Assembly: GCA_038078555.1 (NCBI GenBank)
Contig: JBBTYQ010000001.1
Coordinates: 1 to 58,965 of the forward strand
DNA from: Patescibacteria group bacterium
GTDB taxonomy: Bacteria; Patescibacteriota; Minisyncoccia; UBA6257; UBA9933
Reading direction: 5' to 3'
Length of the DNA stretch: 58,965 nucleotides
Part shown: in pieces, positions 9,749 to 25,798 of the stretch
Layout: every line of letters starts with the position of its first letter
Position numbering within the stretch: position 1 is the first letter of the stretch
Position numbers and translations under genes: made by a program
Notes under the pieces: generated by a model
The model's database searches: none
What the model saw: the letters and a program-made list of their open reading frames with translations, nothing else
What the model was told of the DNA's origin: nothing

Positions 9749-11674
9749 TTATTGAATTACTAATGCATTTCTAAAATCAAATCCGCTATCTTTAAGCGAT
9801 CTCGTTGTTAATGATTCCGCCATATAGATTAATTCTGAATTTGTAAATTCGTCAATTGCTCTTATTTCTGTCTGACCCACCAAAGGCATCTCTCTCCCCG
9901 CTTGAGTAATATTAGGCAAAGCCTCAATTTGAAAAATTGCCTCAGCTGGAATCCGAATGGCGCCTTTAGTTGCCGCAATTTTAGGAATCAGCCAATTAAT
10001 TTCTTGAGTTCTTTCATTGTATGTCGGAACTGTTTCAATGTTGCTCTTTATAATGCCGGTTAAGCGCACTCCGGGCTGCAAATAAGCCTTAACAGAAACA
10101 TCTTTTACATCAGTGGAATAATTTTTAATAATCCAATGAATTGTAAAATTTATTGGCTGATTTATCTTGGGCGGCAAAACACCTTTGTTTGAAACGCCCA
10201 AACTCGAATCATTAAAATAAACCTGAGGTTCAATAATAATCCGGCCGCCGATTTTAGTTTCCAAATTAGTTAATCCGATTGTTTTATCAGCCGCCACATA
10301 ATAAGGCACGGTAGGCGAAGAAATTTCCGCATCAACTTTTAAAATAAAATTTTTATCATTAAGCCTTTTAATAGGATAATCCGGTTTCGTCTTGATTTCT
10401 AAATCAACGCTGCCATACTCGTTAGTCGGCAAAAGCCTTAATTGAGAAACATTGGCCGCGCTCCAACTCAAGGTGCTGTCTCGGGAGTCAAACGACCCAG
10501 TTGTTTTAAGGCTGGAAAAATCAAACATTTCGCCGCTAAGTTTTGCTTTTATCACTACATCGCTTAATCCGACATCGGTATTATTTTTATAAGTTAATTT
10601 ATATTTTAAAATTCCATTGGGATAAGCAACGTAATTAGGCGACTCGTTCAAACTGATTGCCAAAGAAAGAGGCGAAGGCGCAATACTTATACTGGCAGTC
10701 TTTTCGCTGATTAAATAGATATTACTCGAAAAACCAACCTCAATCTGAGCTTTAACTTCAAAAAACGACTGTTCTGGCCCGATAATTTTTCCCTTTAAAT
10801 AAATCTCTCCGCTTTGACTTTTTTTCAATCCGTTTATTGCCAAATTATCAAGATTTTTACCGAAAAAATCAGCAGGTTTTATTTCTTTTATAGAAAAATT
10901 GGGGGGCAGAATAATTTTTAAATTCGCCTCCTCTATATTGATATCTGAAACATTCTCATAGCGGATTTTTGTTTCAAATTCTTCGTTATTCAAAACTTTT
11001 TCCGGAGTTGTTAAATCCAGCTTAATGCCCGGCTCTCGAGCCAAAACTTCCACATTTCTCTTTTTTTCAAAACGCGATTTAAGAACCGAAGAATAAGAAA
11101 AAGAGATGTTAAAATTCCTAACCGCCTCATTAGAACCAAGCGCTATTAGATTAATTTTTTCCTGAAAACCCAAGCCCGCCTCTATGTCGCCTATTTTCTT
11201 GGAAAATGTTCTTTTATCTGCGCCCTGACCGATTATTGCCGTCCCTTCGGGTAAAAAAATGGAAAAATCAGCGTCTTTTAAAATATCTTGAGAGCTATTG
11301 TCAAAATTGATCATCAATTCAAAAGGCACGCCAACCATAACACTTGAAGGTGCTGAAGCAGAAAGAATTACTTCCCGATCCGTGGAAAAATAATCATAAA
11401 GATAAAGTCCGCTTAAAGCGGCTAATCCCAAAACTACAATCAAAAGAATCCAAAATAACCATTTTCCTATTTGACCGATTTTCATAAAAATATTTGGCAT
11501 CTTAGATGAGTTTTCCTTTTTTTCATCGTGCCAAGATTTAACATCTTGCAAAGACTCGTTTGATTTATCTTTGTCAGTTTTTAAATCAGCGCTAATTTCC
11601 GCGCGCTTTTTTAAATCGCTTTCTTCGGGACTTTTCTGATTATAAAGTTTTTTCTCTAAATCTTCTAATGCCAT
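9749..11674 (-). CDS. Membrane-anchored hypothetical protein with repeated beta-sandwich-like segments
   Basis: Long ORF with a single TM (WLFWILLIVVLGLAALSGLYLY) followed by about 550 aa of beta-rich repeats. I recognise no catalytic motif. The track start at 11704 is TTG and the first ATG is at 11674. Confidence 0.6.
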   Translation of the reverse strand: MALEDLEKKLYNQKSPEESDLKKRAEISADLKTDKDKSNESLQDVKSWHDEKKENSSKMPNIFMKIGQIGKWLFWILLIVVLGLAALSGLYLYDYFSTDREVILSASAPSSVMVGVPFELMINFDNSSQDILKDADFSIFLPEGTAIIGQGADKRTFSKKIGDIEAGLGFQEKINLIALGSNEAVRNFNISFSYSSVLKSRFEKKRNVEVLAREPGIKLDLTTPEKVLNNEEFETKIRYENVSDINIEEANLKIILPPNFSIKEIKPADFFGKNLDNLAINGLKKSQSGEIYLKGKIIGPEQSFFEVKAQIEVGFSSNIYLISEKTASISIAPSPLSLAISLNESPNYVAYPNGILKYKLTYKNNTDVGLSDVVIKAKLSGEMFDFSSLKTTGSFDSRDSTLSWSAANVSQLRLLPTNEYGSVDLEIKTKPDYPIKRLNDKNFILKVDAEISSPTVPYYVAADKTIGLTNLETKIGGRIIIEPQVYFNDSSLGVSNKGVLPPKINQPINFTIHWIIKNYSTDVKDVSVKAYLQPGVRLTGIIKSNIETVPTYNERTQEINWLIPKIAATKGAIRIPAEAIFQIEALPNITQAGREMPLVGQTEIRAIDEFTNSELIYMAESLTTRSLKDSGFDFRNALVIQ

Positions 11675-11752
11675 TAATGATTGAAAGTAGCGAAAATTCG
11701 TCAAACAATAAAATATTCCGTTATTTGCAGAAATAAACGCTGGTAATTATTA

Positions 11753-13176: not shown

Positions 13177-13806
13177 TCACTTAATATTCAACTCAACACC
13201 TGAAACACCAGTCAAAATATCTCTGCCCATATAAGCAACATTGGAATCAACGCTTGATCCTGATTTAAAAGAAATGTCTATTTTAACATTACCCTTTTTA
13301 ATAGCCTTAAAAATTAAGGTTGCCACTGACCCTTTGCCGGAAACTTCTTCCGAAGGATTAGCCAGGGCAGAAAAAATTATCGAACCTACCAGATTATTGA
13401 CTCTTAAATAAGGAAAAATATTAAAAAACGAAGCAGTTGTGTCAAGGTAATTTTTTGGCTCAAGAACTTCGTCTTTAATTTGCTTTTTAGTTTTTACCGC
13501 AGAACTAACCGGCTGAATTTCCAAAAATTCCGGATCATAATTTAAAATCACGTCAGTTCCGACGTTTTTTTCCGACAAACTATCAAGTAAAACAGTCACT
13601 TTCACCAATTCATTAAGATTAATGCTGGCTTTATCCGCGCTAAGACTCAAATAAACCGGTTTAATTTCTTTTTTCATTATTACCGGTTCGGCAATTTCAT
13701 ATTTTTTGAAAGAATATACAATAAGCCCGGCCGCTGCAATGCCAAAAAGCGCCACTATTCCCAGATAACGCCAATTAGTCGGCTCATTTGTTATTTTAAA
13801 CATCAT
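13177..13806 (-). CDS. Membrane-anchored cohesin-domain protein
   Basis: N-terminal TM, then VKVTVLLDSLSEKNVGTDVILNYDPEFLEI ... GSIIFSALANPSEEVSGKGSVATLIFKAIKKGNVKIDISF, matching the type I cohesin fold pattern. Confidence 0.6.
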   Translation of the reverse strand: MMFKITNEPTNWRYLGIVALFGIAAAGLIVYSFKKYEIAEPVIMKKEIKPVYLSLSADKASINLNELVKVTVLLDSLSEKNVGTDVILNYDPEFLEIQPVSSAVKTKKQIKDEVLEPKNYLDTTASFFNIFPYLRVNNLVGSIIFSALANPSEEVSGKGSVATLIFKAIKKGNVKIDISFKSGSSVDSNVAYMGRDILTGVSGVELNIK

Positions 13807-18532: not shown

Positions 18533-19627
18533 TTACATATCCAAGCTGTAAAGCTTTTTGTCGTATCTGTTTATAAAAATCAGCTGATTTCCTGAAAGTT
18601 CCAAATTGTAAACGTCTATGGCTATTTTGGAATTCAAAGGAATTTCGAGGAAGGTGTTGTTTGTGATATCAACTTCATAAATCCGGTCGTCGGAATAAAA
18701 CGCTCGTTTTAAATAGTCATCAGGCAAAAGAGGTTTTTTAATAGTGTTATAGCCCAAAGAAACCGCGCAATAAATTTTAGCAAAATTCACTAAACATTTT
18801 TTCGGAAAAGAAGAAAATTGTAAGTCAGCCTTAACTTTTCCGTTTAATTCAATCAGCTTTAAATCGCTCTCTCCTTCCTGATTAATGCTGTGCATTAATC
18901 CCCAGCTTCCGTCTTTGGCAAAATCAATCAATAATCCCTTGCCATTCGCAAAAATACTTAAAGCTTTATTTTTTATATCAATTGACCAAATTTCATTATC
19001 ATAAGAAGCCGATGATTTTGGAATAAGGAGAACTTTATCCGAAGTAATCCATTTTAAATCAAAACCATATTGATTAAAAGATAAAACTTTTGTTGTTTTT
19101 TGTTTGGCATCTTTAAGATCTTTAATTATTAAATTACTTATCGCGGTGGCTCCGGTATTTTCCAGATAAGCGACTTTTGTTCCGTCAACGGAAAAACCGG
19201 CGGCTAAAGCGTTAATCTCCTGCCAGATTTTTTTCTTAATATCAAAGATTTCTATTTTGTTTGCTTTTACGATAATCTTATTCCCGCTATTATCAGCTTC
19301 TACTGCTTTTAGATTGCTGATTATTCGATCGCTTATTATTTCGTCTTCTACATCGGGCTTAACTTTTAAAATTTGGCCTTGATTATTGATATAAAAAATT
19401 TCGGTTGAAGTCGCATTAGCTGCAAGCCAAAAATCAAAAACTTCCTGATCACTAATGATTTTTAATTTTTTTTCTAATGTAATCTGTTGTTGGTTGTTAG
19501 TTGTAGGTTGTTGGTTAGCAGTCGGCGGTGTTAAAATTTCTTTTGATTTTTTCCAGGCAAAATAAACACCGAAAGAAATAGCGGAGATAAAAATAATAGC
19601 TGTTATTATAATAATTATTTTTTTCAT
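18533..19627 (-). CDS. Membrane-anchored hypothetical protein, last gene of the T4SS-like operon
   Basis: N-terminal TM (IIIIITAIIFISAISFGVYFAW), then a beta-rich ectodomain. The start overlaps the upstream stop (ATGA at 19624-19627). Confidence 0.6.
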   Translation of the reverse strand: MKKIIIIITAIIFISAISFGVYFAWKKSKEILTPPTANQQPTTNNQQQITLEKKLKIISDQEVFDFWLAANATSTEIFYINNQGQILKVKPDVEDEIISDRIISNLKAVEADNSGNKIIVKANKIEIFDIKKKIWQEINALAAGFSVDGTKVAYLENTGATAISNLIIKDLKDAKQKTTKVLSFNQYGFDLKWITSDKVLLIPKSSASYDNEIWSIDIKNKALSIFANGKGLLIDFAKDGSWGLMHSINQEGESDLKLIELNGKVKADLQFSSFPKKCLVNFAKIYCAVSLGYNTIKKPLLPDDYLKRAFYSDDRIYEVDITNNTFLEIPLNSKIAIDVYNLELSGNQLIFINRYDKKLYSLDM

Positions 19628-20250
19628 TTTTTTGTATAAACTAATTTACATATCCCCGTACCATCGGTCTGTTGATCAGAAAATGTAATCGTCGGCAATT
19701 CAGTTAAATTATTTTGCCCTTTGATGCTTTCTGCCCAACTTTGACAGGATTTATAGGTCATACTTTTCTGAGTAATAGAACATACCCCTGTGCCTCTAGA
19801 ACAAGTGCTAACTGTTGATTGATTTGATGTTTCTGTTGTGCTATTTGTCGCCGTTTTTATCACCGGCTTTACGAATTCCGGTTCTCTTAATTGCAATATT
19901 TCCGGATTTATAGTTCTTAGTAAAAGCGAAGCGCCAATTAACAATACAATGCCCCAAACAGCTCCGGTAATCCAACTTACGGCTTCTGATTGTTTTGAAG
20001 CGTTTCCCGACGAAACCGTGTATAAAATTCCTCCGTAAATTATTGCGCCTAGTGCTGTTACGCCCACCAAAGCCAGCGAATAGTTGTAAAGCTTTGACAC
20101 TAAGCCGGATGAACCGCCTAATGTTTCTGTGCCGCACCAGGGATAATTGTATTCACTGCAGGTGAAATCAACAGTTGCTCCAAAAACCGAAACACTGCTT
20201 ATAAAAAACAGAAATGCGGATATTATTAAAATTTTTGAAAACATCTTCAT
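19624..20250 (-). CDS. T4SS pilin-like (VirB2/TrbC-type) protein with a short Cys-containing C-terminal domain
   Basis: Signal peptide, then two hydrophobic helices around LALVGVTALGAIIYGGILYTVSSGNASKQSEAVSWITGAVWGIVLLIGASLLL. This is the pattern of the T4SS_pilin family common in Patescibacteria. Confidence 0.55.
   Translation of the reverse strand: MKMFSKILIISAFLFFISSVSVFGATVDFTCSEYNYPWCGTETLGGSSGLVSKLYNYSLALVGVTALGAIIYGGILYTVSSGNASKQSEAVSWITGAVWGIVLLIGASLLLRTINPEILQLREPEFVKPVIKTATNSTTETSNQSTVSTCSRGTGVCSITQKSMTYKSCQSWAESIKGQNNLTELPTITFSDQQTDGTGICKLVYTKK
19844..20177. repeat. Copy 1 of a perfect 334-nt direct duplication (pilin module)
   Basis: Base-for-base identical to 20792-21125 (offset 948) when the printed lines are compared. 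Confidence 0.95.
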
Positions 20251-20265
20251 TTATTATAATTTATT

Positions 20266-21219
20266 CTACCTGAAATAAAAACTTAAATGCGGACCCGTGG
20301 CGTGCGATGGGCAGTAATTCTCACCTGCAACGCACTCTTTAATTATAGCCATACTGCCAGTCCCTCCTTTATATTGTGCCATATTATTGTAAATATAATT
20401 ATATAGTCCGGCTGAATAATTCAAATCCACCGACCCCATGCCAAAGCCTTGGCTTACATGCCCTTGCTCCGAACCGCCGGTTATTACAATTTCTCTGGCA
20501 ATTGCTCTATCTACGGGATTAGCACTGTTTTCCAAATCTTTTCTGATTTTAATAAGAGTGTTTATGGTGTCTTTAGGAATTCCATTTAAACTGGTGCAAT
20601 TATTTGAAGCCTGATTTGGACATAAACCATTTGTCCCAACCACAGGAATGCCCGCCGCCTTAAGAGCCTGATAAGCTTCATCATGAGAATAAAATAAACT
20701 TTTTTCCAAATCAGTCCAATTACTCTTATCCGTTGCTTTGTTAAGATATTCCGGATGTTTTGAGTAATAAGCTCTGGATGCCGCCGCTTGTTTTGTCGCC
20801 GTTTTTATCACCGGCTTTACGAATTCCGGTTCTCTTAATTGCAATATTTCCGGATTTATAGTTCTTAGTAAAAGCGAAGCGCCAATTAACAATACAATGC
20901 CCCAAACAGCTCCGGTAATCCAACTTACGGCTTCTGATTGTTTTGAAGCGTTTCCCGACGAAACCGTGTATAAAATTCCTCCGTAAATTATTGCGCCTAG
21001 TGCTGTTACGCCCACCAAAGCCAGCGAATAGTTGTAAAGCTTTGACACTAAGCCGGATGAACCGCCTAATGTTTCTGTGCCGCACCAGGGATAATTGTAT
21101 TCACTGCAGGTGAAATCAACAGTTGTAACGGCCAAAGAAAAATTGAACGATATGATAAAAAATAAAATTACCAGGATGCTGATATTTTTTGCTTTTTTAA
21201 TTTTACAGCTTTCATTCAT
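20266..21219 (-). CDS. T4SS pilin-like protein fused to a C-terminal globular domain of about 180 aa (possible LAS-type hydrolase-like)
   Basis: The N-terminal 110 aa after the signal peptide are identical to the neighbouring gene. The C-terminal domain contains ITGGSEQGHVSQGFGMGSVDL and SHATGPHLSFYF, the latter recalling the M23 TGPHLHF motif. That link is speculative. Confidence 0.5.
   Translation of the reverse strand: MNESCKIKKAKNISILVILFFIISFNFSLAVTTVDFTCSEYNYPWCGTETLGGSSGLVSKLYNYSLALVGVTALGAIIYGGILYTVSSGNASKQSEAVSWITGAVWGIVLLIGASLLLRTINPEILQLREPEFVKPVIKTATKQAAASRAYYSKHPEYLNKATDKSNWTDLEKSLFYSHDEAYQALKAAGIPVVGTNGLCPNQASNNCTSLNGIPKDTINTLIKIRKDLENSANPVDRAIAREIVITGGSEQGHVSQGFGMGSVDLNYSAGLYNYIYNNMAQYKGGTGSMAIIKECVAGENYCPSHATGPHLSFYFR
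20792..21125. repeat. Copy 2 of the perfect 334-nt direct duplication (pilin module)
   Basis: Identical to 19844-20177. Confidence 0.95.
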
Positions 21220-21226
21220 TAATAAA

Positions 21227-21964
21227 TTACTTCACTTTTAACTGGATGTTTTTTCTGGCAAATTGCATTTCATCAAACAAATTTCTAATAATAATCACCA
21301 GATTAATTGAAAAATCTTTAGGCGCGGCAGAATCAATATTAAGCTCCAAATCACTGCGTGAGGTATTTTCACTTTCATAAATAACAGCTTCGTTTGCCGT
21401 CCACTCAAAACTAAGCTTGCTCAAATCTCCGATATTGAAAAAAAACGGATAAGCAATAAAAAGATTCTTTCCGGCTCCAATTAAGTTTTTCTCGTAAGGA
21501 GCGTCTATCACGACTTCCGGACTGACAACCGGAATTCTTATGATTTTATCTATTTGACTTCCCCCTTTATAATCGAAAAGCGCAATTCTTACTTCAATAT
21601 CTTGGCCTGAATAATTAGTAGTGTTAAAAGAATATTGCTTGATGCCCAATCCGTTATTTTCGTTTAAAACCAAATTGTCATTTAAATACCAGCGAACTTT
21701 TGTTTTTGAAAGGTCGGCGATTTTGCCGTTATCAATCAATTCAAAACTTATATTGACCAAAGATCCTTTTACCGGAAAAATTTTCCCTTGGTACCAAACC
21801 GGCACATAGCTATTAGCCTGCCAAGAAACTAAAAATTGAGGGACAGCTTGCGCTTTTGCATAAGGCAAAAATCCAAATAACAAAATTAATAAGGTAAATA
21901 ATAAAAATGCCCAGCTTATAATGTCTGACATTTGTCGTTTTTTTGAAATTTTAAAATTTTCCAT
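21227..21964 (-). CDS. Membrane-anchored hypothetical protein (T4SS-like operon)
   Basis: Signal/TM segment WAFLLFTLLILLFGFLPYAKA followed by a beta-rich domain. No recognisable family. Confidence 0.55.
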   Translation of the reverse strand: MENFKISKKRQMSDIISWAFLLFTLLILLFGFLPYAKAQAVPQFLVSWQANSYVPVWYQGKIFPVKGSLVNISFELIDNGKIADLSKTKVRWYLNDNLVLNENNGLGIKQYSFNTTNYSGQDIEVRIALFDYKGGSQIDKIIRIPVVSPEVVIDAPYEKNLIGAGKNLFIAYPFFFNIGDLSKLSFEWTANEAVIYESENTSRSDLELNIDSAAPKDFSINLVIIIRNLFDEMQFARKNIQLKVK

Positions 21965-21967
21965 TTT

Positions 21968-22321
21968 TTATTTTATCGCTTTTACCGCCCCGATTTTTCC
22001 CGCTATTTCCGGCTTATTAATCAAATAAATCGCTACTATTAAGGTTGCGGTGCGAATCGGCAAAATATCCAGCATAGGCACAAATTCTATCAAGTTTCCG
22101 CTCAAAGCTGACGCTTGTTTTCCAAACCCGATGCCTCCTTTCATTATAAACCAAAATTGAGTAAGCGCCAAAACAAAAACATCAATCATCAGTCCGAAAA
22201 AAATCAGAATTTGACCGACAACCGGAACACCGGCGCTAAAACCAATAACAACTTCAAATAAATCCGCCCCTCCTACAATCATTACCATTATTATAATTTC
22301 CGGCAAAGATATTTTTGCCAT
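21968..22321 (-). CDS. Small polytopic membrane protein (T4SS-like operon)
   Basis: Three to four hydrophobic helices. The track start at 22345 is GTG and the first ATG (MAKISLPEIII) is at 22321. Confidence 0.55.
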   Translation of the reverse strand: MAKISLPEIIIMVMIVGGADLFEVVIGFSAGVPVVGQILIFFGLMIDVFVLALTQFWFIMKGGIGFGKQASALSGNLIEFVPMLDILPIRTATLIVAIYLINKPEIAGKIGAVKAIK

Positions 22322-22379
22322 AATTGTTGAAATTTTCGAGCTCACATTATAGCGAAGAAAATTTCACTACAATTATGAG

Positions 22380-22646
22380 CATCGAGCACTCAAATTACTT
22401 TAAACTATCCTTTAAACGACTTTTTAACCATCGAACACTTTGCCCTCTTTGCTTTAATTTTCGCTCTCTTTCTTGGGCATCTTTTTTATTTTTATATGCT
22501 TCATAATAAATCAATTCTGGGTTTTTGTTGTGATGTTCTTTAAATCTCCTTCTTAAATCGTCTGTATAACCAATATAAGTCTCCTTTGTTGTAATATTTC
22601 TGATTAAATAAATATAGTACATTGAAAATAATTTGAGTGCTCGATG
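22380..22646 (-). mobile_element. GIY-YIG gene cassette bounded by an 18-bp perfect inverted repeat
   Basis: CATCGAGCACTCAAATTA at 22380-22397 and its exact reverse complement at 22629-22646 bracket the 75-aa ORF. The left arm overlaps the stop codon and the right arm ends 7 nt before the ATG. Confidence 0.35.
22395..22622 (-). CDS. Stand-alone GIY-YIG nuclease family protein (YhbQ/UPF0213-like)
   Basis: MYYIYLIRNITTKETYIGYTDDLRRRFKEHHNK ... ERERKLKQ is the GIY-(x10)-YIG core with conserved R, E and a late E/K helix. Confidence 0.85.
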   Translation of the reverse strand: MYYIYLIRNITTKETYIGYTDDLRRRFKEHHNKNPELIYYEAYKNKKDAQERERKLKQRGQSVRWLKSRLKDSLK

Positions 22647-22689: not shown

Positions 22690-24438
22690 TTAGGTCAACT
22701 CCTTCATCTCCAATATTTCCTCTGGTTTTGTGGTAATAATTTGATTTTCAAAATAAGACGGCACAATTTGAATCGCCACGTGCTTTAGTCCGGCAAAAAA
22801 TAACCCTTCGCCTACATTGGCCTCCAAAAGCAAACTTTTTTCCGCCTCGGAAAGATTGAATGTTTTCGCCAAAACTTCTATTGAAGACGGCGCTTGTTTA
22901 AGCAAAAGCTGAAGGCTGGAATTGCTAATAATCGGCCGGCCATAAGGCGACTCCAAAAAATCTTCCACATTTTGAGTAATAGTGGTAAGGCCTAAATAAT
23001 ATTTCCGGCATCTCTTTGCTAAGCTGAAAAGAAACGAAGCGCTGTCCGGATATTTCATCATCCACCACGCTTCATCAATCACCAAAATTCTCTTTTTTAA
23101 TTCAGCTCTGATTAAATTCCAAACATAATTAAGAACAATATAAATTGCAATCGGCCGCAGTTCTTCCTCAAGGTCGCGCACCGAAAAGACTATCAAACGG
23201 TTTTTTACGTCTACATTAGTAGGCCGGTTGGTAAATCCAGAATAAGTACCGCGAGTATATTTATAAAGACGCTCGGCCAATCCCCGGCCGCCTTCCATAT
23301 TTTCTAAAACCGTCTGCAAATCTTCTAAAAGCGGTGGTTCGATATTGATAAAATCTTTGTGTTCTGGCGTAATGCCTCTTGAAGCATAAGTTTCTGTGAT
23401 AGCTCTATCTAAAAGCGCATCTTCCTCAGGAGTGATTTTGCCAAGCATAAGTTTTAACAAGCCAGCCAGATTTAAAATATGGGATTTAAAAACATCGGCC
23501 GCATCTTCGTCTTTGGGAATAATTGGAATATCAAATGGATTTATTGTACTTTCCGAAGTTAAAGAAATTTTAAAAAAACTTCCTCCGACTGTTTGAGCTA
23601 ATTTTTTATATTCTTCTTCCGGGTCGATTATTAAAATATCCGTGCCCATCATAAGCGAACGCAAAATTTCCAATTTAACAGCAAAAGATTTTCCCGCGCC
23701 CGCCTTGGCAAAAACTACCGAATTGGCGTTTTCTAAAGAAAAACGGTCGAAAATAACCAAAGTATTATTATGCCGATTAATGCCGTAAAGAATACCCTCG
23801 TCAGAAGTCAAATCCATAGAAACAAAAGGAAACATTGAAGAAGCCGGACCGGAATTAAGAGGCGTATGAACTGATAATTTATCTTGGCCTAAGGGCAAGA
23901 CCGAAGAAAATCCTTCAATTTGCTGGAAAATAGCCGGTTTGGCGTAAACCAATTGGCTTTCAAACAAAGAATTGATTTTTTCTTCTAATTTATTAAGCTC
24001 TTCAAGCGAATCGGCCTGCATGGAAATATAAACACCCGTGTTAAACATTCTCTCTTGAGCTTGCTGGAGAACATCGCGAAGATTTTCGATATCAGTATAA
24101 GCGGTCTCAAGCATCGGATCTCTGACTAATCCTTTTTCTTCTCGCTCCAATAACTGGGCTTCAACGTTGGTGGCTTTTCTCCTTAAATCTTTGAGCGCTA
24201 AAGCTGTTTCAACCGGATGAATAAAAACAGAAACGTCCAAAAGTTCGGGCAAATTTATTATAGAATTAAACCAGCCGGTCGAAAGATACCTGGGATAAGT
24301 AAAAATAAAAACCGTTTTAACGAATTTTTCGCCGATTTTCACATAACCGGGATTATTTTCAAGCGCCGCTGGAGCAATGACATTTTTCACATCGCTTTCG
24401 CCGGGCGTATAAGCTTGAGGAATTTTAATTTTTTCCAT
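22690..24438 (-). CDS. virB4: VirB4/TrbE/TraC-type T4SS ATPase (C-terminal two thirds)
   Basis: Walker A VFAKAGAGKSFAV and Walker B RILVIDEAWWMM. The N-terminal IAPAALENNPGYVKIGEKFVKTVFIFTYPRYLSTGW matches the mid-region of Gram-positive-type VirB4 proteins. Confidence 0.8.
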   Translation of the reverse strand: MEKIKIPQAYTPGESDVKNVIAPAALENNPGYVKIGEKFVKTVFIFTYPRYLSTGWFNSIINLPELLDVSVFIHPVETALALKDLRRKATNVEAQLLEREEKGLVRDPMLETAYTDIENLRDVLQQAQERMFNTGVYISMQADSLEELNKLEEKINSLFESQLVYAKPAIFQQIEGFSSVLPLGQDKLSVHTPLNSGPASSMFPFVSMDLTSDEGILYGINRHNNTLVIFDRFSLENANSVVFAKAGAGKSFAVKLEILRSLMMGTDILIIDPEEEYKKLAQTVGGSFFKISLTSESTINPFDIPIIPKDEDAADVFKSHILNLAGLLKLMLGKITPEEDALLDRAITETYASRGITPEHKDFINIEPPLLEDLQTVLENMEGGRGLAERLYKYTRGTYSGFTNRPTNVDVKNRLIVFSVRDLEEELRPIAIYIVLNYVWNLIRAELKKRILVIDEAWWMMKYPDSASFLFSLAKRCRKYYLGLTTITQNVEDFLESPYGRPIISNSSLQLLLKQAPSSIEVLAKTFNLSEAEKSLLLEANVGEGLFFAGLKHVAIQIVPSYFENQIITTKPEEILEMKELT

Positions 24439-24451
24439 ATATTTGCATATT

Positions 24452-24473
24452 AATTCGCATTATTCACGATTAC
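24452..24473 (-). repeat. Intercistronic repeat copy (plus-strand reading AATTCGCATTATTCACGATTAC)
   Basis: 20 of 22 nt identical to 25777-25798. Both begin at the GAG-TAA end of the upstream ORF. Confidence 0.7.
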
Positions 24474-25120
24474 TCTTTGGCAATTTTTAATTCTTTTTTC
24501 TCGGTCGCCTGCGGATTATAAAGATTATAAAATAATTCAATAATCTCTTCGCTGTTTAAAGCAACCGCGCGCAATCCTATCTGAGATAATCCTTCTATTA
24601 TTTGCTCTGTCCGCTGATTAATTTGCATTGCTTTTTGTTCAAAACCTTCGTCCTCTTTTTTCGGAGTTTTTCCTTTTTCCCAGAATTTCAGCGAAGCGAT
24701 TAAATTTTCGCCTGCTTTAGGAATTTGAACCGGGTCATAAGGCACAACAGCAAAAAAAGTTTTCGCCATTACCGAATTCATTTCCACGAAAGACTTAATA
24801 AATTCTATATATTCTGTTATTTGATTTTTCAACAATTCATTTTCTTCTTTTCCTTGGCGTTCTTTAAGTTTTTCCAAATAACTGCTAATGTTCATTTTTC
24901 TGGAATGAATAACAAACTGTATGGAAAAACCCAGGGTATTTAGAAAATTTTGATAAGCATAAGTAATTATATTCTGTTCTTCTTCGGATTTAAGTTCGAA
25001 ATTAATTCCGGATACCATTAAAATTCGGCGCAAGCCGCCGGTTTTTAAAACAACCACTCCGTCCTTGATATCTTCAATTTCCACGAATTGCTGGGTAGAT
25101 TGCGCTTCTTTTGTTGGCAT
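24470..25120 (-). CDS. Probable detached N-terminal domain of VirB4
   Basis: QQFVEIEDIKDGVVVLKTGGLRRILMVSGINFELKSEEEQNIITYAYQNFLNTL resembles the N-terminal region of Gram-positive VirB4/TcpF-like ATPases. It lies immediately upstream of the ATPase ORF. Confidence 0.5.
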   Translation of the reverse strand: MPTKEAQSTQQFVEIEDIKDGVVVLKTGGLRRILMVSGINFELKSEEEQNIITYAYQNFLNTLGFSIQFVIHSRKMNISSYLEKLKERQGKEENELLKNQITEYIEFIKSFVEMNSVMAKTFFAVVPYDPVQIPKAGENLIASLKFWEKGKTPKKEDEGFEQKAMQINQRTEQIIEGLSQIGLRAVALNSEEIIELFYNLYNPQATEKKELKIAKE

Positions 25121-25161: not shown

Positions 25162-25698
25162 TTATCGATAATCCACGCGTCTCGCAATATCCCTATCGCC
25201 TGTAATTTTCTTGAAAACCGAAAATCTTTCTTTAGGCTGTTTTTCCCACTTAAGTGAACGATGCGGTTTCTCTCTTTTTGGAATTGGTGCTTTTGTCGTC
25301 ATTATATTTTGCCAAAGCTTATTTACACTGGGCATATTGTAAAAAAAATCTTTTAAGTTTTCTCTTTTTGTCAAAGTCGCTTCTTCCATAATTTTAGGAA
25401 TTTCTATCGTCCGTTCTTTTATTTCTCTTTGCCACAAATAAAGCCTGGGTTTCCACAAAAACCCAAAAGCATACAAAATAATTTTTATCAAAGGCTGGCC
25501 GTTATATTTAACAAAAGCCAAAGCCGCGCCGATAACGACTAGAACAGCCGTGATAATAAACCAAAGCCATGTTGCTAAAATAAAGAAAAGCATAAAACTC
25601 GCTCCGCCAGCCGCTGCCAAATACAAAAACTGCCTTAAGGTTAAAGGTCCGACAATTTTACTTTCTACATCGATAAATTGAGGAATTTGAAATTGCAT
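25162..25698 (-). CDS. PrgI family (VirB3-like) T4SS membrane protein
   Basis: MQFQIPQFIDVESKIVGPLTLRQFLYLAAAGGASFMLFF followed by a second TM. The ATG is at 25698; the track TTG extension to 25731 is unlikely. Confidence 0.6.
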   Translation of the reverse strand: MQFQIPQFIDVESKIVGPLTLRQFLYLAAAGGASFMLFFILATWLWFIITAVLVVIGAALAFVKYNGQPLIKIILYAFGFLWKPRLYLWQREIKERTIEIPKIMEEATLTKRENLKDFFYNMPSVNKLWQNIMTTKAPIPKREKPHRSLKWEKQPKERFSVFKKITGDRDIARRVDYR

Positions 25699-25701
25699 AA
25701 A

Positions 25702-25798
25702 GTAATCGCAAATAATGCTAATATAACTCAAAACAATGCGAATGATTATTGGTAATGCAAATTAATAATTTGCTAAAATTCGCATTATTAGCGATTAC
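25702..25798 (-). promoter_or_regulatory. Long-range intercistronic hairpin (17-nt arms, one mismatch) spanning stop-to-start between two T4SS genes
   Basis: GTAATCGCAAATAATGC (25702-25718) pairs with GCATTATTAGCGATTAC (25782-25798). An inner hairpin is GCAAATT-ATT-AATTTGC. Confidence 0.5.

What the first reader, a model, noticed from the sequence alone, without database searches (positions are those of the whole stretch)
19844..21125. Perfect 334-nt duplication: one pilin module, two different C-terminal domains
19844-20177 and 20792-21125 are identical base for base (offset 948). They encode the same 110-aa pilin core (VDFTCSEYNYPWCGTETLGG ... REPEFVKPVIKTAT) in two adjacent genes.

Identity stops abruptly at both ends. 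The signal peptides differ. The C-termini are unrelated: a 60-aa Cys-containing tail in one, and a 180-aa globular domain in the other. That larger domain has ITGGSEQGHVS...GSVDL and SHATGPHLSF, the latter reminiscent of the M23 TGPHLHF motif.

Zero divergence over 334 nt, when the flanks are unrelated, implies very recent duplication or ongoing gene conversion. This suggests a modular design in which a constant pilin stalk displays alternative tips or cargo.
Basis: seen in the sequence. Interest (0 to 1): 0.68.

Follow-up and report, generated by a model that had tools for sequence, protein, structure and literature searches.

The report
Gene-converted twin secretion-pilin fusion genes
Two neighbouring genes of an ultra-small groundwater bacterium share a base-for-base identical membrane "pilin" module but carry different outer domains, and comparison with relatives shows that recombination keeps copying this module between the two genes.

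Summary
Window 19844-20177 and 20792-21125 are an exact 334-nt direct repeat, while the flanks match only at chance level (30-37%).

The repeat lies on the minus strand. It encodes 110 identical codons of a VirB2-like type IV secretion (T4SS) pilin module in two adjacent genes, A (317 aa) and B (208 aa). Both sit in a conserved chromosomal Patescibacteria T4SS operon (PrgI, split VirB4).

Four other genomes have the same tandem pair, with cores 90.6-98.2% identical within a genome but only 66-80% identical between genomes. Their C-terminal tails instead group by type across genomes. This is the signature of gene conversion, not of a fresh duplication or an assembly error.

The modular reading also holds. 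94 of 112 relatives of A's C-terminal domain are fused to this pilin core. Other relatives carry lytic transglycosylase domains or Cys-rich tails.

A's C-terminal domain folds confidently (pLDDT 92) but has no Pfam family and no significant PDB neighbour. It also occurs as small proteins in fungi and Streptomyces, most with a hydrophobic N-terminus, and once fused to peptidoglycan-binding domains. A zinc-peptidase (LAS/M15-like) motif is only a lead, and in this protein that motif is altered.

Function is inferred, not shown.

The parts
20792..21125 (-). Repeat copy 1. It lies inside gene A, from codon 32 (2nd base) to codon 143 (2nd base), and encodes the mature VirB2-like pilin core plus a short linker.
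   Evidence: Exact 334-nt match to 19844-20177.
19844..20177 (-). Repeat copy 2. It lies inside gene B, from codon 25 (2nd base) to codon 136 (2nd base), in the same reading phase as copy 1.
   Evidence: Phase computed from the ORF coordinates.
20266..21219 (-). Gene A, 317 aa. It comprises a signal peptide (about residues 1-31), a Cys-x7-Cys N-terminal segment, two transmembrane helices (54-86 and 91-121), a flexible linker (about 126-149) and a globular C-terminal domain (150-317).
   Evidence: ORF. T4SS_pilin E 1.2e-4, below Pfam's cut-off. AF2 model with pLDDT 82 and these helices. Homologues that pass the PF18895 cut-off.
20266..20772 (-). C-terminal domain of gene A (residues 150-317 plus stop). 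It is a conserved, unannotated secreted domain. The family motif is TGGTE-GH-x2-H-G-x-G-x3-VD ... HxH/HWD. This protein has GH-x2-Q and HxS instead.
   Evidence: AF2 domain model pLDDT 91.9, pTM 0.87. 112 relatives. Alignment A4. No Pfam family. No significant PDB neighbour.
19624..20250 (-). Gene B, 208 aa. It has its own signal peptide, the identical pilin core, then a 73-aa tail: a Ser/Thr-rich linker followed by a segment with 4 Cys. Its stop region overlaps the start of the next gene by 4 nt.
   Evidence: ORF. T4SS_pilin E 5.8e-5. The tail has no detectable homologue.
21227..21964 (-). Conserved operon gene of unknown function (245-aa ORF, called as 234 aa), immediately upstream of the pilin genes in all relatives.
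   Evidence: Synteny in L005, L036, L039 and L056. No Pfam hit.
21968..22345 (-). Conserved small membrane-protein gene (125-aa ORF, called as 117 aa) of the operon.
22690..24438 (-). VirB4-like ATPase, P-loop part (582 aa).
   Evidence: P-loop_TraG E 8.2e-25, AAA_10, DUF87.
24470..25120 (-). TraC-like N-terminal part of the split VirB4 (216 aa).
   Evidence: TraC_F_IV weak hit. PF26593 TraC-like on the same gene.
25162..25731 (-). PrgI (VirB3-like) T4SS component.
   Evidence: PF12666 E 3e-11.
18533..19627 (-). Conserved downstream operon gene (364 aa, N-terminal transmembrane segment), function unknown.
   Evidence: Present after the pilin gene(s) in L005, L036 and L039 as proteins of 391-411 aa.

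Best explanation
Genes A and B are tandem paralogues of the VirB2-like pilin of a chromosomal, Gram-positive-type T4SS in a Patescibacteria (Wolfebacteria-like) genome.

Each protein is built from four parts: its own signal peptide, a shared pilin module (a disulfide-type N-terminal segment plus a two-helix membrane hairpin), a flexible linker, and an extracellular C-terminal module specific to that gene.

The shared module is kept identical by non-reciprocal homologous recombination (gene conversion) between the two adjacent genes. The tract ends where homology ends, at the signal-peptide boundary on one side and the start of the tails on the other.

The probable selective logic (inferred) is that both proteins must fit the same T4SS machinery, and perhaps co-assemble, while presenting different outer functions. 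A carries a conserved enzyme-like domain, probably active on or binding the cell wall. B carries a small, fast-evolving Cys-containing domain, possibly for adhesion or host recognition.

Because the repeats are direct and in the same frame, unequal crossing-over could also delete or duplicate units and swap tails between signal peptides.

Shown: the repeat, the gene structures, T4SS pilin homology, the conserved operon, the concerted-evolution pattern, and a folded C-terminal domain in A.

Inferred: topology (C-terminus outside), cell-wall activity, co-assembly, and the selective reason.
For: - Exact 334-nt repeat with chance-level flanks.
- Both genes hit T4SS_pilin. Their close homologues (50-66% identical) pass its Pfam cut-off.
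- The AF2 hairpin matches a solved conjugative pilin: 8dfu, rmsd 1.7 A over 65 columns, TM 0.68 normalised to the target, prob 0.75.
- The operon PrgI - TraC-like - VirB4 - two unknown genes - pilin(s) - ~400-aa gene is conserved in relatives. In Wolfebacteria (L005/L006) it also sits next to the same histidine kinase, fpg and pyrG genes as in the window.
- Tandem pairs occur in four more genomes. Core nt identity within a genome is 98.2% over 272 nt (L056), 92.7% (L024), 92.7% (L041) and 90.6% (L003). Between genomes it is 66-80%.
- L024 contains a 173-nt exact tract inside diverged but homologous flanks. None of 200,000 permutations gave a run that long. For L041 P is about 0.001.
- Tails are orthologous across genomes while cores are not: winA-L024A 40% over 173 aa, E 4e-37; L003B-L041B 54% over 122 aa, E 9e-47.
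- Synonymous sites are homogenised. Of codons encoding the same amino acid, 0% differ in the window pair and 10-20% in L024 and L003, against 33-61% between genomes.
- Modularity: 94 of 112 relatives of A's domain carry the pilin core. SLT-fused and Cys-tail versions also exist.
- A's domain has pLDDT 91.9. It is homologous (hhalign E 1e-40) to stand-alone ~150-aa proteins of fungi and actinomycetes, most with a hydrophobic N-terminus, and to a Streptomyces protein that carries PG_binding_1/3 domains.
Against: - The window proteins score just below the PF18895 gathering cut-off (23.5 and 22.5 bits against 26.6).
- No reads were available, so strict perfection of the repeat, and the presence of recombinant junctions, are untested.
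- B's tail has no homologue. For this particular genome I therefore cannot prove that gene B predates the identity tract.
- A cell-wall hydrolase role is not established. There is no Pfam family and no significant Foldseek match in the PDB. Matches to Hedgehog/LAS proteins are weak: E 0.2-0.6, HH_signal E 0.066, hhalign probability 3-10%.
- In A's subclade the predicted first metal-binding His is Gln and the terminal HxH is HxS.
- Nothing shows that a fusion pilin polymerises.
Confidence: 0.75

Rival explanations
1. Very recent partial duplication. The core of one gene was copied once into a neighbouring position, and there is no ongoing conversion.
For: Zero divergence over 334 nt. B's tail is an orphan with no homologue. 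Wolfebacteria GW2011 has only one pilin gene at this position.
Against: A tandem duplication with a 948-nt period would also have copied tail A and signal peptide B, yet these regions match only at chance level. A copy inserted elsewhere would need to land in frame between a working signal peptide and a tail.

The same A+B layout exists in L056, L024, L003 and L041, with orthologous tails and graded core identity of 90.6-98.2%. That implies old pairs that are repeatedly homogenised.
Confidence: 0.1
2. Assembly artefact. Either the two copies are mis-joined, or near-identical copies were collapsed to look identical.
For: This is a short-read metagenome assembly, and the repeat (334 nt) is longer than a typical read. 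Assemblers can merge bubbles caused by a few SNPs.
Against: The unique junction 'tail A - 15 nt - signal peptide B' only exists in a tandem layout. The same sequence was assembled in independent replicates. Other groups' MAGs show the same tandem layout with nearly identical but not identical cores, for example L056 with 5 mismatches in 272 nt. So the layout is real, and only the word 'perfect' is at risk.
Confidence: 0.07
3. Tail shuffling rather than core conversion. The cores are young duplicates in each genome, and the tails were brought in repeatedly by recombination or horizontal transfer.
For: Tail combinations differ between genomes: the HWD variant of A's domain plus the L003B/L041B-type tail in L003, SLT plus that same tail type in L041, and the HxS variant plus a Cys-rich tail in the window, L024 and L056.
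Against: This needs many independent in-frame acquisitions at the same operon position. The exact tract in L024 is embedded in still-homologous, diverged core sequence, which is typical of a conversion tract and not of a whole-module duplication.
Confidence: 0.08

Closest known systems
VirB2/TrbC-type T4SS pilins, and the VirB2-like pilin arrays of Patescibacteria (Pfam PF18895; Wang et al. 2023, PMC10633639; Quinonero-Coronel et al. 2025, PMC12102498)
   Same: A signal peptide plus a two-helix hydrophobic hairpin. The genes lie next to virB4 and prgI in a chromosomal, relaxase-less T4SS cluster. Several pilin genes sit in tandem.
   Different: Published arrays are described as highly divergent, with mean 25% and maximum 54% amino-acid identity (PMC12102498). 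Here the pilin module is identical at the DNA level. The pilins here are also fusion proteins with 73-175-aa extracellular domains. That paper mentions neither such fusions nor gene conversion.
T4SS cell-wall hydrolases: VirB1, PrgK (pCF10), TraG (pIP501)
   Same: A wall-active domain encoded within the T4SS cluster and anchored in the membrane. Relatives of gene A carry a genuine SLT domain after the same pilin core (P0008, P0014, L041A).
   Different: Here the membrane anchor is the pilin module itself. The window's gene A has no SLT, CHAP or M23 domain. It has an unannotated domain whose catalytic-type motif is altered.
LAS zinc peptidases: M15 VanX/VanY, M23 lysostaphin/LytM, and the Hedgehog N-terminal domain
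   Same: The family consensus S-H-x2-G-x-K/G-x-D followed about 40 residues later by E-x2-H or HxH resembles the M15 motifs SxHxxGxAxD and ExxH (motifs recalled from memory). There are weak profile matches to Sonic/Indian hedgehog that align exactly on these motifs.
   Different: No match is significant, whether by sequence profile against the PDB or Pfam or by Foldseek structure search. In gene A's subclade the first His is Gln and HxH is HxS.
Concerted evolution and gene conversion of bacterial surface-protein paralogues (Neisseria pilE/pilS, Helicobacter bab/hop genes, tufA/tufB); from general knowledge
   Same: Non-reciprocal recombination between paralogues leaves tracts of zero divergence that end where homology ends.
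   Different: In the antigenic-variation systems, conversion diversifies the exposed part. Here it homogenises the constant, membrane-embedded part and leaves the exposed tails distinct.
Polymorphic-toxin style modular proteins (CdiA-CT, Rhs, PAAR/VgrG fusions); from general knowledge
   Same: A constant delivery module joined to interchangeable C-terminal modules. Shared constant sequence allows recombinational swapping.
   Different: There is no evidence here for toxin or immunity pairs. The constant module is a T4SS pilin.

Membership tests
T4SS_pilin (PF18895; VirB2-like) | Match to the Pfam model at or above the gathering score (26.6 bits) | tested here: not met
   Gene B scores 23.5 bits and gene A 22.5 bits. 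Homologues that are 50-66% identical score 27-37 bits and pass.
T4SS_pilin (PF18895; VirB2-like) | Clear homology to proteins that are members | tested here: met
   E 1e-40 to 1e-18 against 19 proteins (P0003-P0021). 17 of them carry a precomputed PF18895 domain.
T4SS_pilin (PF18895; VirB2-like) | Signal peptide followed by a two-helix hydrophobic hairpin resembling solved conjugative pilins | tested here: met
   AF2 helices 10-25, 54-86 and 91-121. Foldseek match to 8dfu (A. pernix conjugation pilus): prob 0.75, TM 0.68 normalised to the target, rmsd 1.7 A over 65 columns. The E-value itself is weak, at 4.7.
T4SS_pilin (PF18895; VirB2-like) | Encoded in a T4SS cluster with virB4 | tested here: met
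   VirB4 P-loop, TraC-like and PrgI genes lie 1.5-4.5 kb upstream on the same strand. The same operon is found in relatives.
T4SS_pilin (PF18895; VirB2-like) | Polymerises into a pilus or forms part of the channel | not testable with these tools
   Needs microscopy or biochemistry.
LAS / M15-type zinc peptidase (C-terminal domain of gene A) | Metal-binding motifs H-x(3-6)-D plus a distal His (ExxH or HxH) | tested here: not met
   The family consensus has these motifs. Gene A and its subclade instead have GH-x2-Q...D and H-x-S, with an extra His five residues upstream of the retained His in most members of the subclade.
LAS / M15-type zinc peptidase (C-terminal domain of gene A) | Significant profile or fold similarity to a LAS structure | tested here: inconclusive
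   Sonic/Indian hedgehog E 0.2-0.6 with profile A3. Nothing with A4 or A5. HH_signal E 0.066 for P0018. hhalign probability 3-10%. Foldseek against the PDB: best E 0.83, with no LAS entry.
   No Pfam hit at E<=0.1 for gene A, and none among 37 family members. The terminal motif is HLS.
VirB1-like lytic transglycosylase (SLT, PF01464) | SLT domain | tested here: not met
   Absent from genes A and B. Present after the same pilin core in P0008, P0014 and L041A.
Gene conversion / concerted evolution | An identity tract, including synonymous sites, bounded by diverged or unrelated sequence | tested here: met
   334 nt in the window. 173 nt in L024 within diverged homologous flanks. Synonymous differences 0-20% within genomes against 33-61% between genomes.
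Gene conversion / concerted evolution | Converted segments group by genome while linked unconverted segments group by orthology | tested here: met
   Core identity matrix and tail BLASTP. L056.
Gene conversion / concerted evolution | Direct observation of recombinant molecules or a conversion event | not testable with these tools
   Needs reads or long-read data from the sample.

The most novel reading that the evidence does not exclude
In this Patescibacteria lineage the T4SS filament or channel is built from pilin-fusion subunits. These would display enzyme-like and adhesin-like domains on its outside, forming an 'armed' conjugative-type pilus used to attach to and breach the wall of a host cell. 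Gene conversion keeps the polymerisation module of all subunits interchangeable, while the displayed domains diversify or are swapped by unequal crossing-over.

The displayed domain of gene A would belong to a new, widespread family of secreted wall-active proteins shared with fungi and actinomycetes, with no solved structural relative.
Probability: 0.25. Interest if true: 0.8.

Novelty: new variant of a known kind. Interest (0 to 1): 0.55.

Why it matters
The T4SS and its predicted pilin array are essential for the epibiotic growth of the one genetically tractable Patescibacterium (PMC10633639). [quoted passage not shown]

This locus shows three things.
- In the Wolfebacteria-like lineage sampled here the pilin is a carrier for extracellular domains. 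Genuine lytic transglycosylases are among them, which would explain part of the 'missing VirB1'.
- The carrier module evolves in concert between tandem copies. That implies a strong requirement that all copies fit the same machine.
- One of the carried domains belongs to a widespread family that is unannotated and structurally unmatched, and is also found in fungi and Streptomyces.

Each point gives a concrete experiment for a system that is hard to study.

Tried and rejected
- Sequence search of A's C-terminal domain against the PDB: one chance hit, E 0.81.
- Foldseek with the full-length model was dominated by spurious histidine-kinase helical hits. Only the pilin hairpin match to 8dfu was meaningful.
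- Foldseek with the domain-only model found nothing significant in the PDB. In BFVD there was one borderline unnamed 992-aa viral protein, E 1.5e-3.
- Pfam scans of 37 + 51 family members found no family.
- Profiles A4 and A5 against the PDB found nothing relevant.
- hhalign against a Sonic hedgehog fragment gave probability 3-10%.
- tblastn of a stand-alone homologue against phages found nothing. Against plasmids it found only Streptomyces 'hypothetical protein' entries or unannotated stretches.
- B's tail has no homologue in 5.8 billion proteins at word-index sensitivity, nor among the local loci.
- Promoter and terminator scans gave counts equal to shuffled sequence.
- No tRNA and no Rfam family in the window.
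- Purifying selection alone cannot explain the identity, because synonymous sites are identical too.
- The 'two alleles stitched in tandem' idea was rejected because the tail A - spacer - signal peptide B junction is unique sequence, and the layout recurs in other MAGs.
Full report
**1. The observation**

A self-comparison finds one long direct repeat in the region. Extending base by base gives an exact match of 334 nt, 19844-20177 = 20792-21125, at an offset of 948. Identity in the adjacent 30-200 nt on both sides is only 30-37%, which is chance level.

The coding strand is the minus strand. Gene A is 20266-21219 (317 aa) and gene B is 19624-20250 (208 aa). In both genes the repeat begins at the second base of a codon just after the signal peptide, and it ends at the second base of the codon that starts the tail. 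So 110 whole codons are identical and in the same phase. The signal peptides and the tails (175 aa in A, 73 aa in B) are unrelated.

The window is the first 59 kb of ENA contig Hain_H41_01um_R2_16 (243 kb, groundwater, 0.1 um fraction). A contig from another replicate assembly is 100% identical over 8.1 kb, including both copies. Gene B is found on four contigs, always with the same neighbours.

**2. What the genes are**

Both proteins hit Pfam T4SS_pilin (PF18895) just under its cut-off. Their homologues are 50-66% identical in the core, and 17 of 19 carry a precomputed PF18895 domain; the eight with tails related to A's C-terminal domain that I rescanned all passed the cut-off.

An AlphaFold model of A (pLDDT 82) shows these elements:
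- a signal-peptide helix;
- two long hydrophobic helices (54-86 and 91-121);
- a disordered linker (lowest confidence at residues 133-148);
- a confident globular domain (residues 150-317).

The hairpin superposes on the Aeropyrum pernix conjugation pilin 8dfu (rmsd 1.7 A over 65 columns, prob 0.75).

Upstream on the same strand lie PrgI (VirB3-like), a TraC-like protein and a VirB4 P-loop protein, which together make a split VirB4. The order PrgI - TraC-like - VirB4 - ~110-aa gene - ~235-aa gene - pilin(s) - ~400-aa gene recurs in several other Patescibacteria contigs. In Candidatus Wolfebacteria (L005/L006) it is also followed by the same histidine kinase, fpg and pyrG genes as in the window. 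This is therefore the chromosomal Patescibacteria T4SS described in PMC12102498 and PMC10633639, not a mobile element.

**3. Duplication or conversion?**

A simple tandem duplication with a 948-nt period would also have duplicated tail A and signal peptide B. It did not.

Four further genomes carry the same adjacent pair:

| Genome | Core nt identity within the pair | Longest exact tract |
|---|---|---|
| Window | 100% | 334 nt |
| L056 (Ca. Wolfebacteria GCA_016214005.1) | 98.2% over 272 nt (all 5 differences synonymous) | 100 nt |
| L024 | 92.7% | 173 nt |
| L041 | 92.7% | 87 nt |
| L003 | 90.6% | 44 nt |

Between genomes the cores are only 66-80% identical.

The tails tell the opposite story. 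A's tail is orthologous to the A tail of L024 (40% over 173 aa, E 4e-37), and in alignment A4 it is 51% identical to the C-terminal domain of P0023, the A protein of L056. The B tails of L003 and L041 are orthologous to each other (54% over 122 aa, E 9e-47). Cores group by genome and tails group by type, which is concerted evolution.

The fraction of same-amino-acid codons that differ is 0% in the window pair, 10-20% in L024 and L003, and 33-61% between genomes. Selection on the protein alone cannot produce this.

In L024 the 173-nt exact tract lies inside core sequence that is still homologous but diverged. Under a uniform spread of the differences, none of 200,000 permutations gave such a run. 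For L041 P is about 0.001.

I conclude that repeated gene conversion homogenises the pilin module, and that the window shows the most recent event. The one gap is that the window's own B tail has no detectable homologue. The age of this particular B gene is therefore inferred from the sister genomes.

**4. Modularity**

The full-library search with A's C-terminal domain found 112 cluster representatives, and 94 of them also carry the pilin core.

Proteins with the same core end in one of the following:
- a lytic transglycosylase domain (P0008, P0014, L041A);
- one of several variants of A's domain;
- a short Cys-rich tail.

In genomes with a single pilin gene at this operon position, that gene is itself a fusion.

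A distant genome (L053) has one pilin with a lysozyme-like tail and one with an H..D / HLH-type tail. The two genes are not adjacent and their cores are not homogenised.

**5. The C-terminal domain of A**

The domain-only model is very confident (pLDDT 91.9, pTM 0.87). No Pfam family matches any of 88 members tested. Foldseek finds no significant neighbour in the PDB and only one borderline unnamed viral protein in BFVD.

A profile search shows that the same domain occurs as stand-alone proteins of about 150 aa in many fungi, in Streptomyces and Amycolatopsis, and in one insect. Most of the sequences I inspected begin with a hydrophobic, signal-peptide-like segment. It also occurs in a Streptomyces protein behind PG_binding_1/3 domains. 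The relationship is certain (hhalign E 1e-40). Homologues on Streptomyces plasmids are annotated only as hypothetical proteins or lie in unannotated stretches.

The family's invariant residues (TGGTE, H, G, D, and a distal E-x2-H-W-D or HxH) resemble the M15/LAS motifs SxHxxGxAxD and ExxH as I recall them. Profile A3 gives repeated weak hits to Sonic and Indian hedgehog that align on exactly these motifs (E 0.2-0.6). P0018 gives HH_signal at E 0.066. None of this is significant, so the LAS assignment is a lead and nothing more.

In gene A and its subclade the first His is Gln and the terminal HxH is HxS. A further His sits five residues upstream of the retained His in every aligned member of the subclade except L024A, which has Tyr there; one member (P0026) ends before this motif. 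It is not an M23 site.

**6. Mechanism, with its status**

Shown:
- two co-oriented, tightly packed genes (a 15-nt gap between A and B, then a 4-nt overlap with the next gene);
- an identical pilin module;
- different tails;
- the conversion signature.

Inferred from VirB2 topology (established knowledge): after signal-peptide cleavage the N-terminus is outside, the loop between the helices faces the cytoplasm, and the C-terminus is outside. The tails would then sit in or beyond the cell wall. This fits the Cys content of the tails and the wall-active domains found in relatives.

Inferred: both proteins must dock to the same machinery, or co-assemble, which would explain why homogenisation is tolerated or favoured.

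Because the repeats are direct and in frame, unequal crossing-over would give an in-frame hybrid (signal peptide A - core - tail B) or a three-gene array. This is a route to tail shuffling, and it is testable with reads.

**7. Comparison with the literature, and novelty**

VirB2-like pilin arrays in Patescibacteria are known and are essential in Southlakia (PMC10633639, PMC12857230). They are described as highly divergent, with a maximum of 54% identity. PMC12102498 does not mention pilin fusions or gene conversion. [quoted passage not shown]

Pilin-hydrolase fusions and concerted evolution of the pilin module are therefore a new variant within a known system. The gene-conversion phenomenon itself is ordinary.

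**8. Verdict**

The function of the tails is unproven. Interest is moderate.

Noticed in passing
window 22380-22646 (ORF 22395-22622, minus strand): A 75-aa GIY-YIG gene (Pfam E 1.7e-12) sits between virB4 and the next operon gene. It is bracketed exactly by a 25-nt inverted repeat, 22380-22404 / 22622-22646, 92% complementary. It is absent at this position in L005/L006, L036 and L039. L056 has a GIY-YIG gene just upstream of prgI instead. It looks like a small mobile cassette inserted in the T4SS operon.
   Followed up: partly
window 22690-25120: VirB4 is encoded as two genes, a TraC-like N-terminal part (216 aa) and a P-loop part (582 aa). This is so in the window and in the relatives examined where both genes lie on the contig (L005, L006, L036, L037, L039, L056).
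   Followed up: partly
proteins P0135-P0223; Streptomyces plasmid hits H1-H15: The C-terminal domain of gene A belongs to a widespread family with no Pfam model and no significant PDB neighbour. Members are ~150-aa proteins, most with a hydrophobic N-terminus, in Xylariales and other fungi, Mortierella, Streptomyces, Amycolatopsis and the fly Bradysia. One Streptomyces protein carries it behind PG_binding_1/3 domains and one fungal protein behind an ML domain.
   Followed up: partly
window 1-58965: No tRNA gene (ARAGORN) and no Rfam family at gathering score in 59 kb. Nearly all genes between about 2.8 and 37.4 kb are on the minus strand, with steadily negative GC skew.
   Followed up: no
window 13177-13806 and 9749-11704: A 209-aa protein with a cohesin domain (E 3.8e-7) and a 651-aa protein with a weak DUF11 repeat hit. 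These may be surface or adhesion proteins a few kb from the T4SS operon.
   Followed up: no
L053 1120-3950: A more distant genome has two non-adjacent pilin fusions, one with a lysozyme/SLT-like tail and one with an H..D / HLH-type tail. Each has an additional Cys-rich segment, and the cores are not homogenised (76% over 62 nt).
   Followed up: partly
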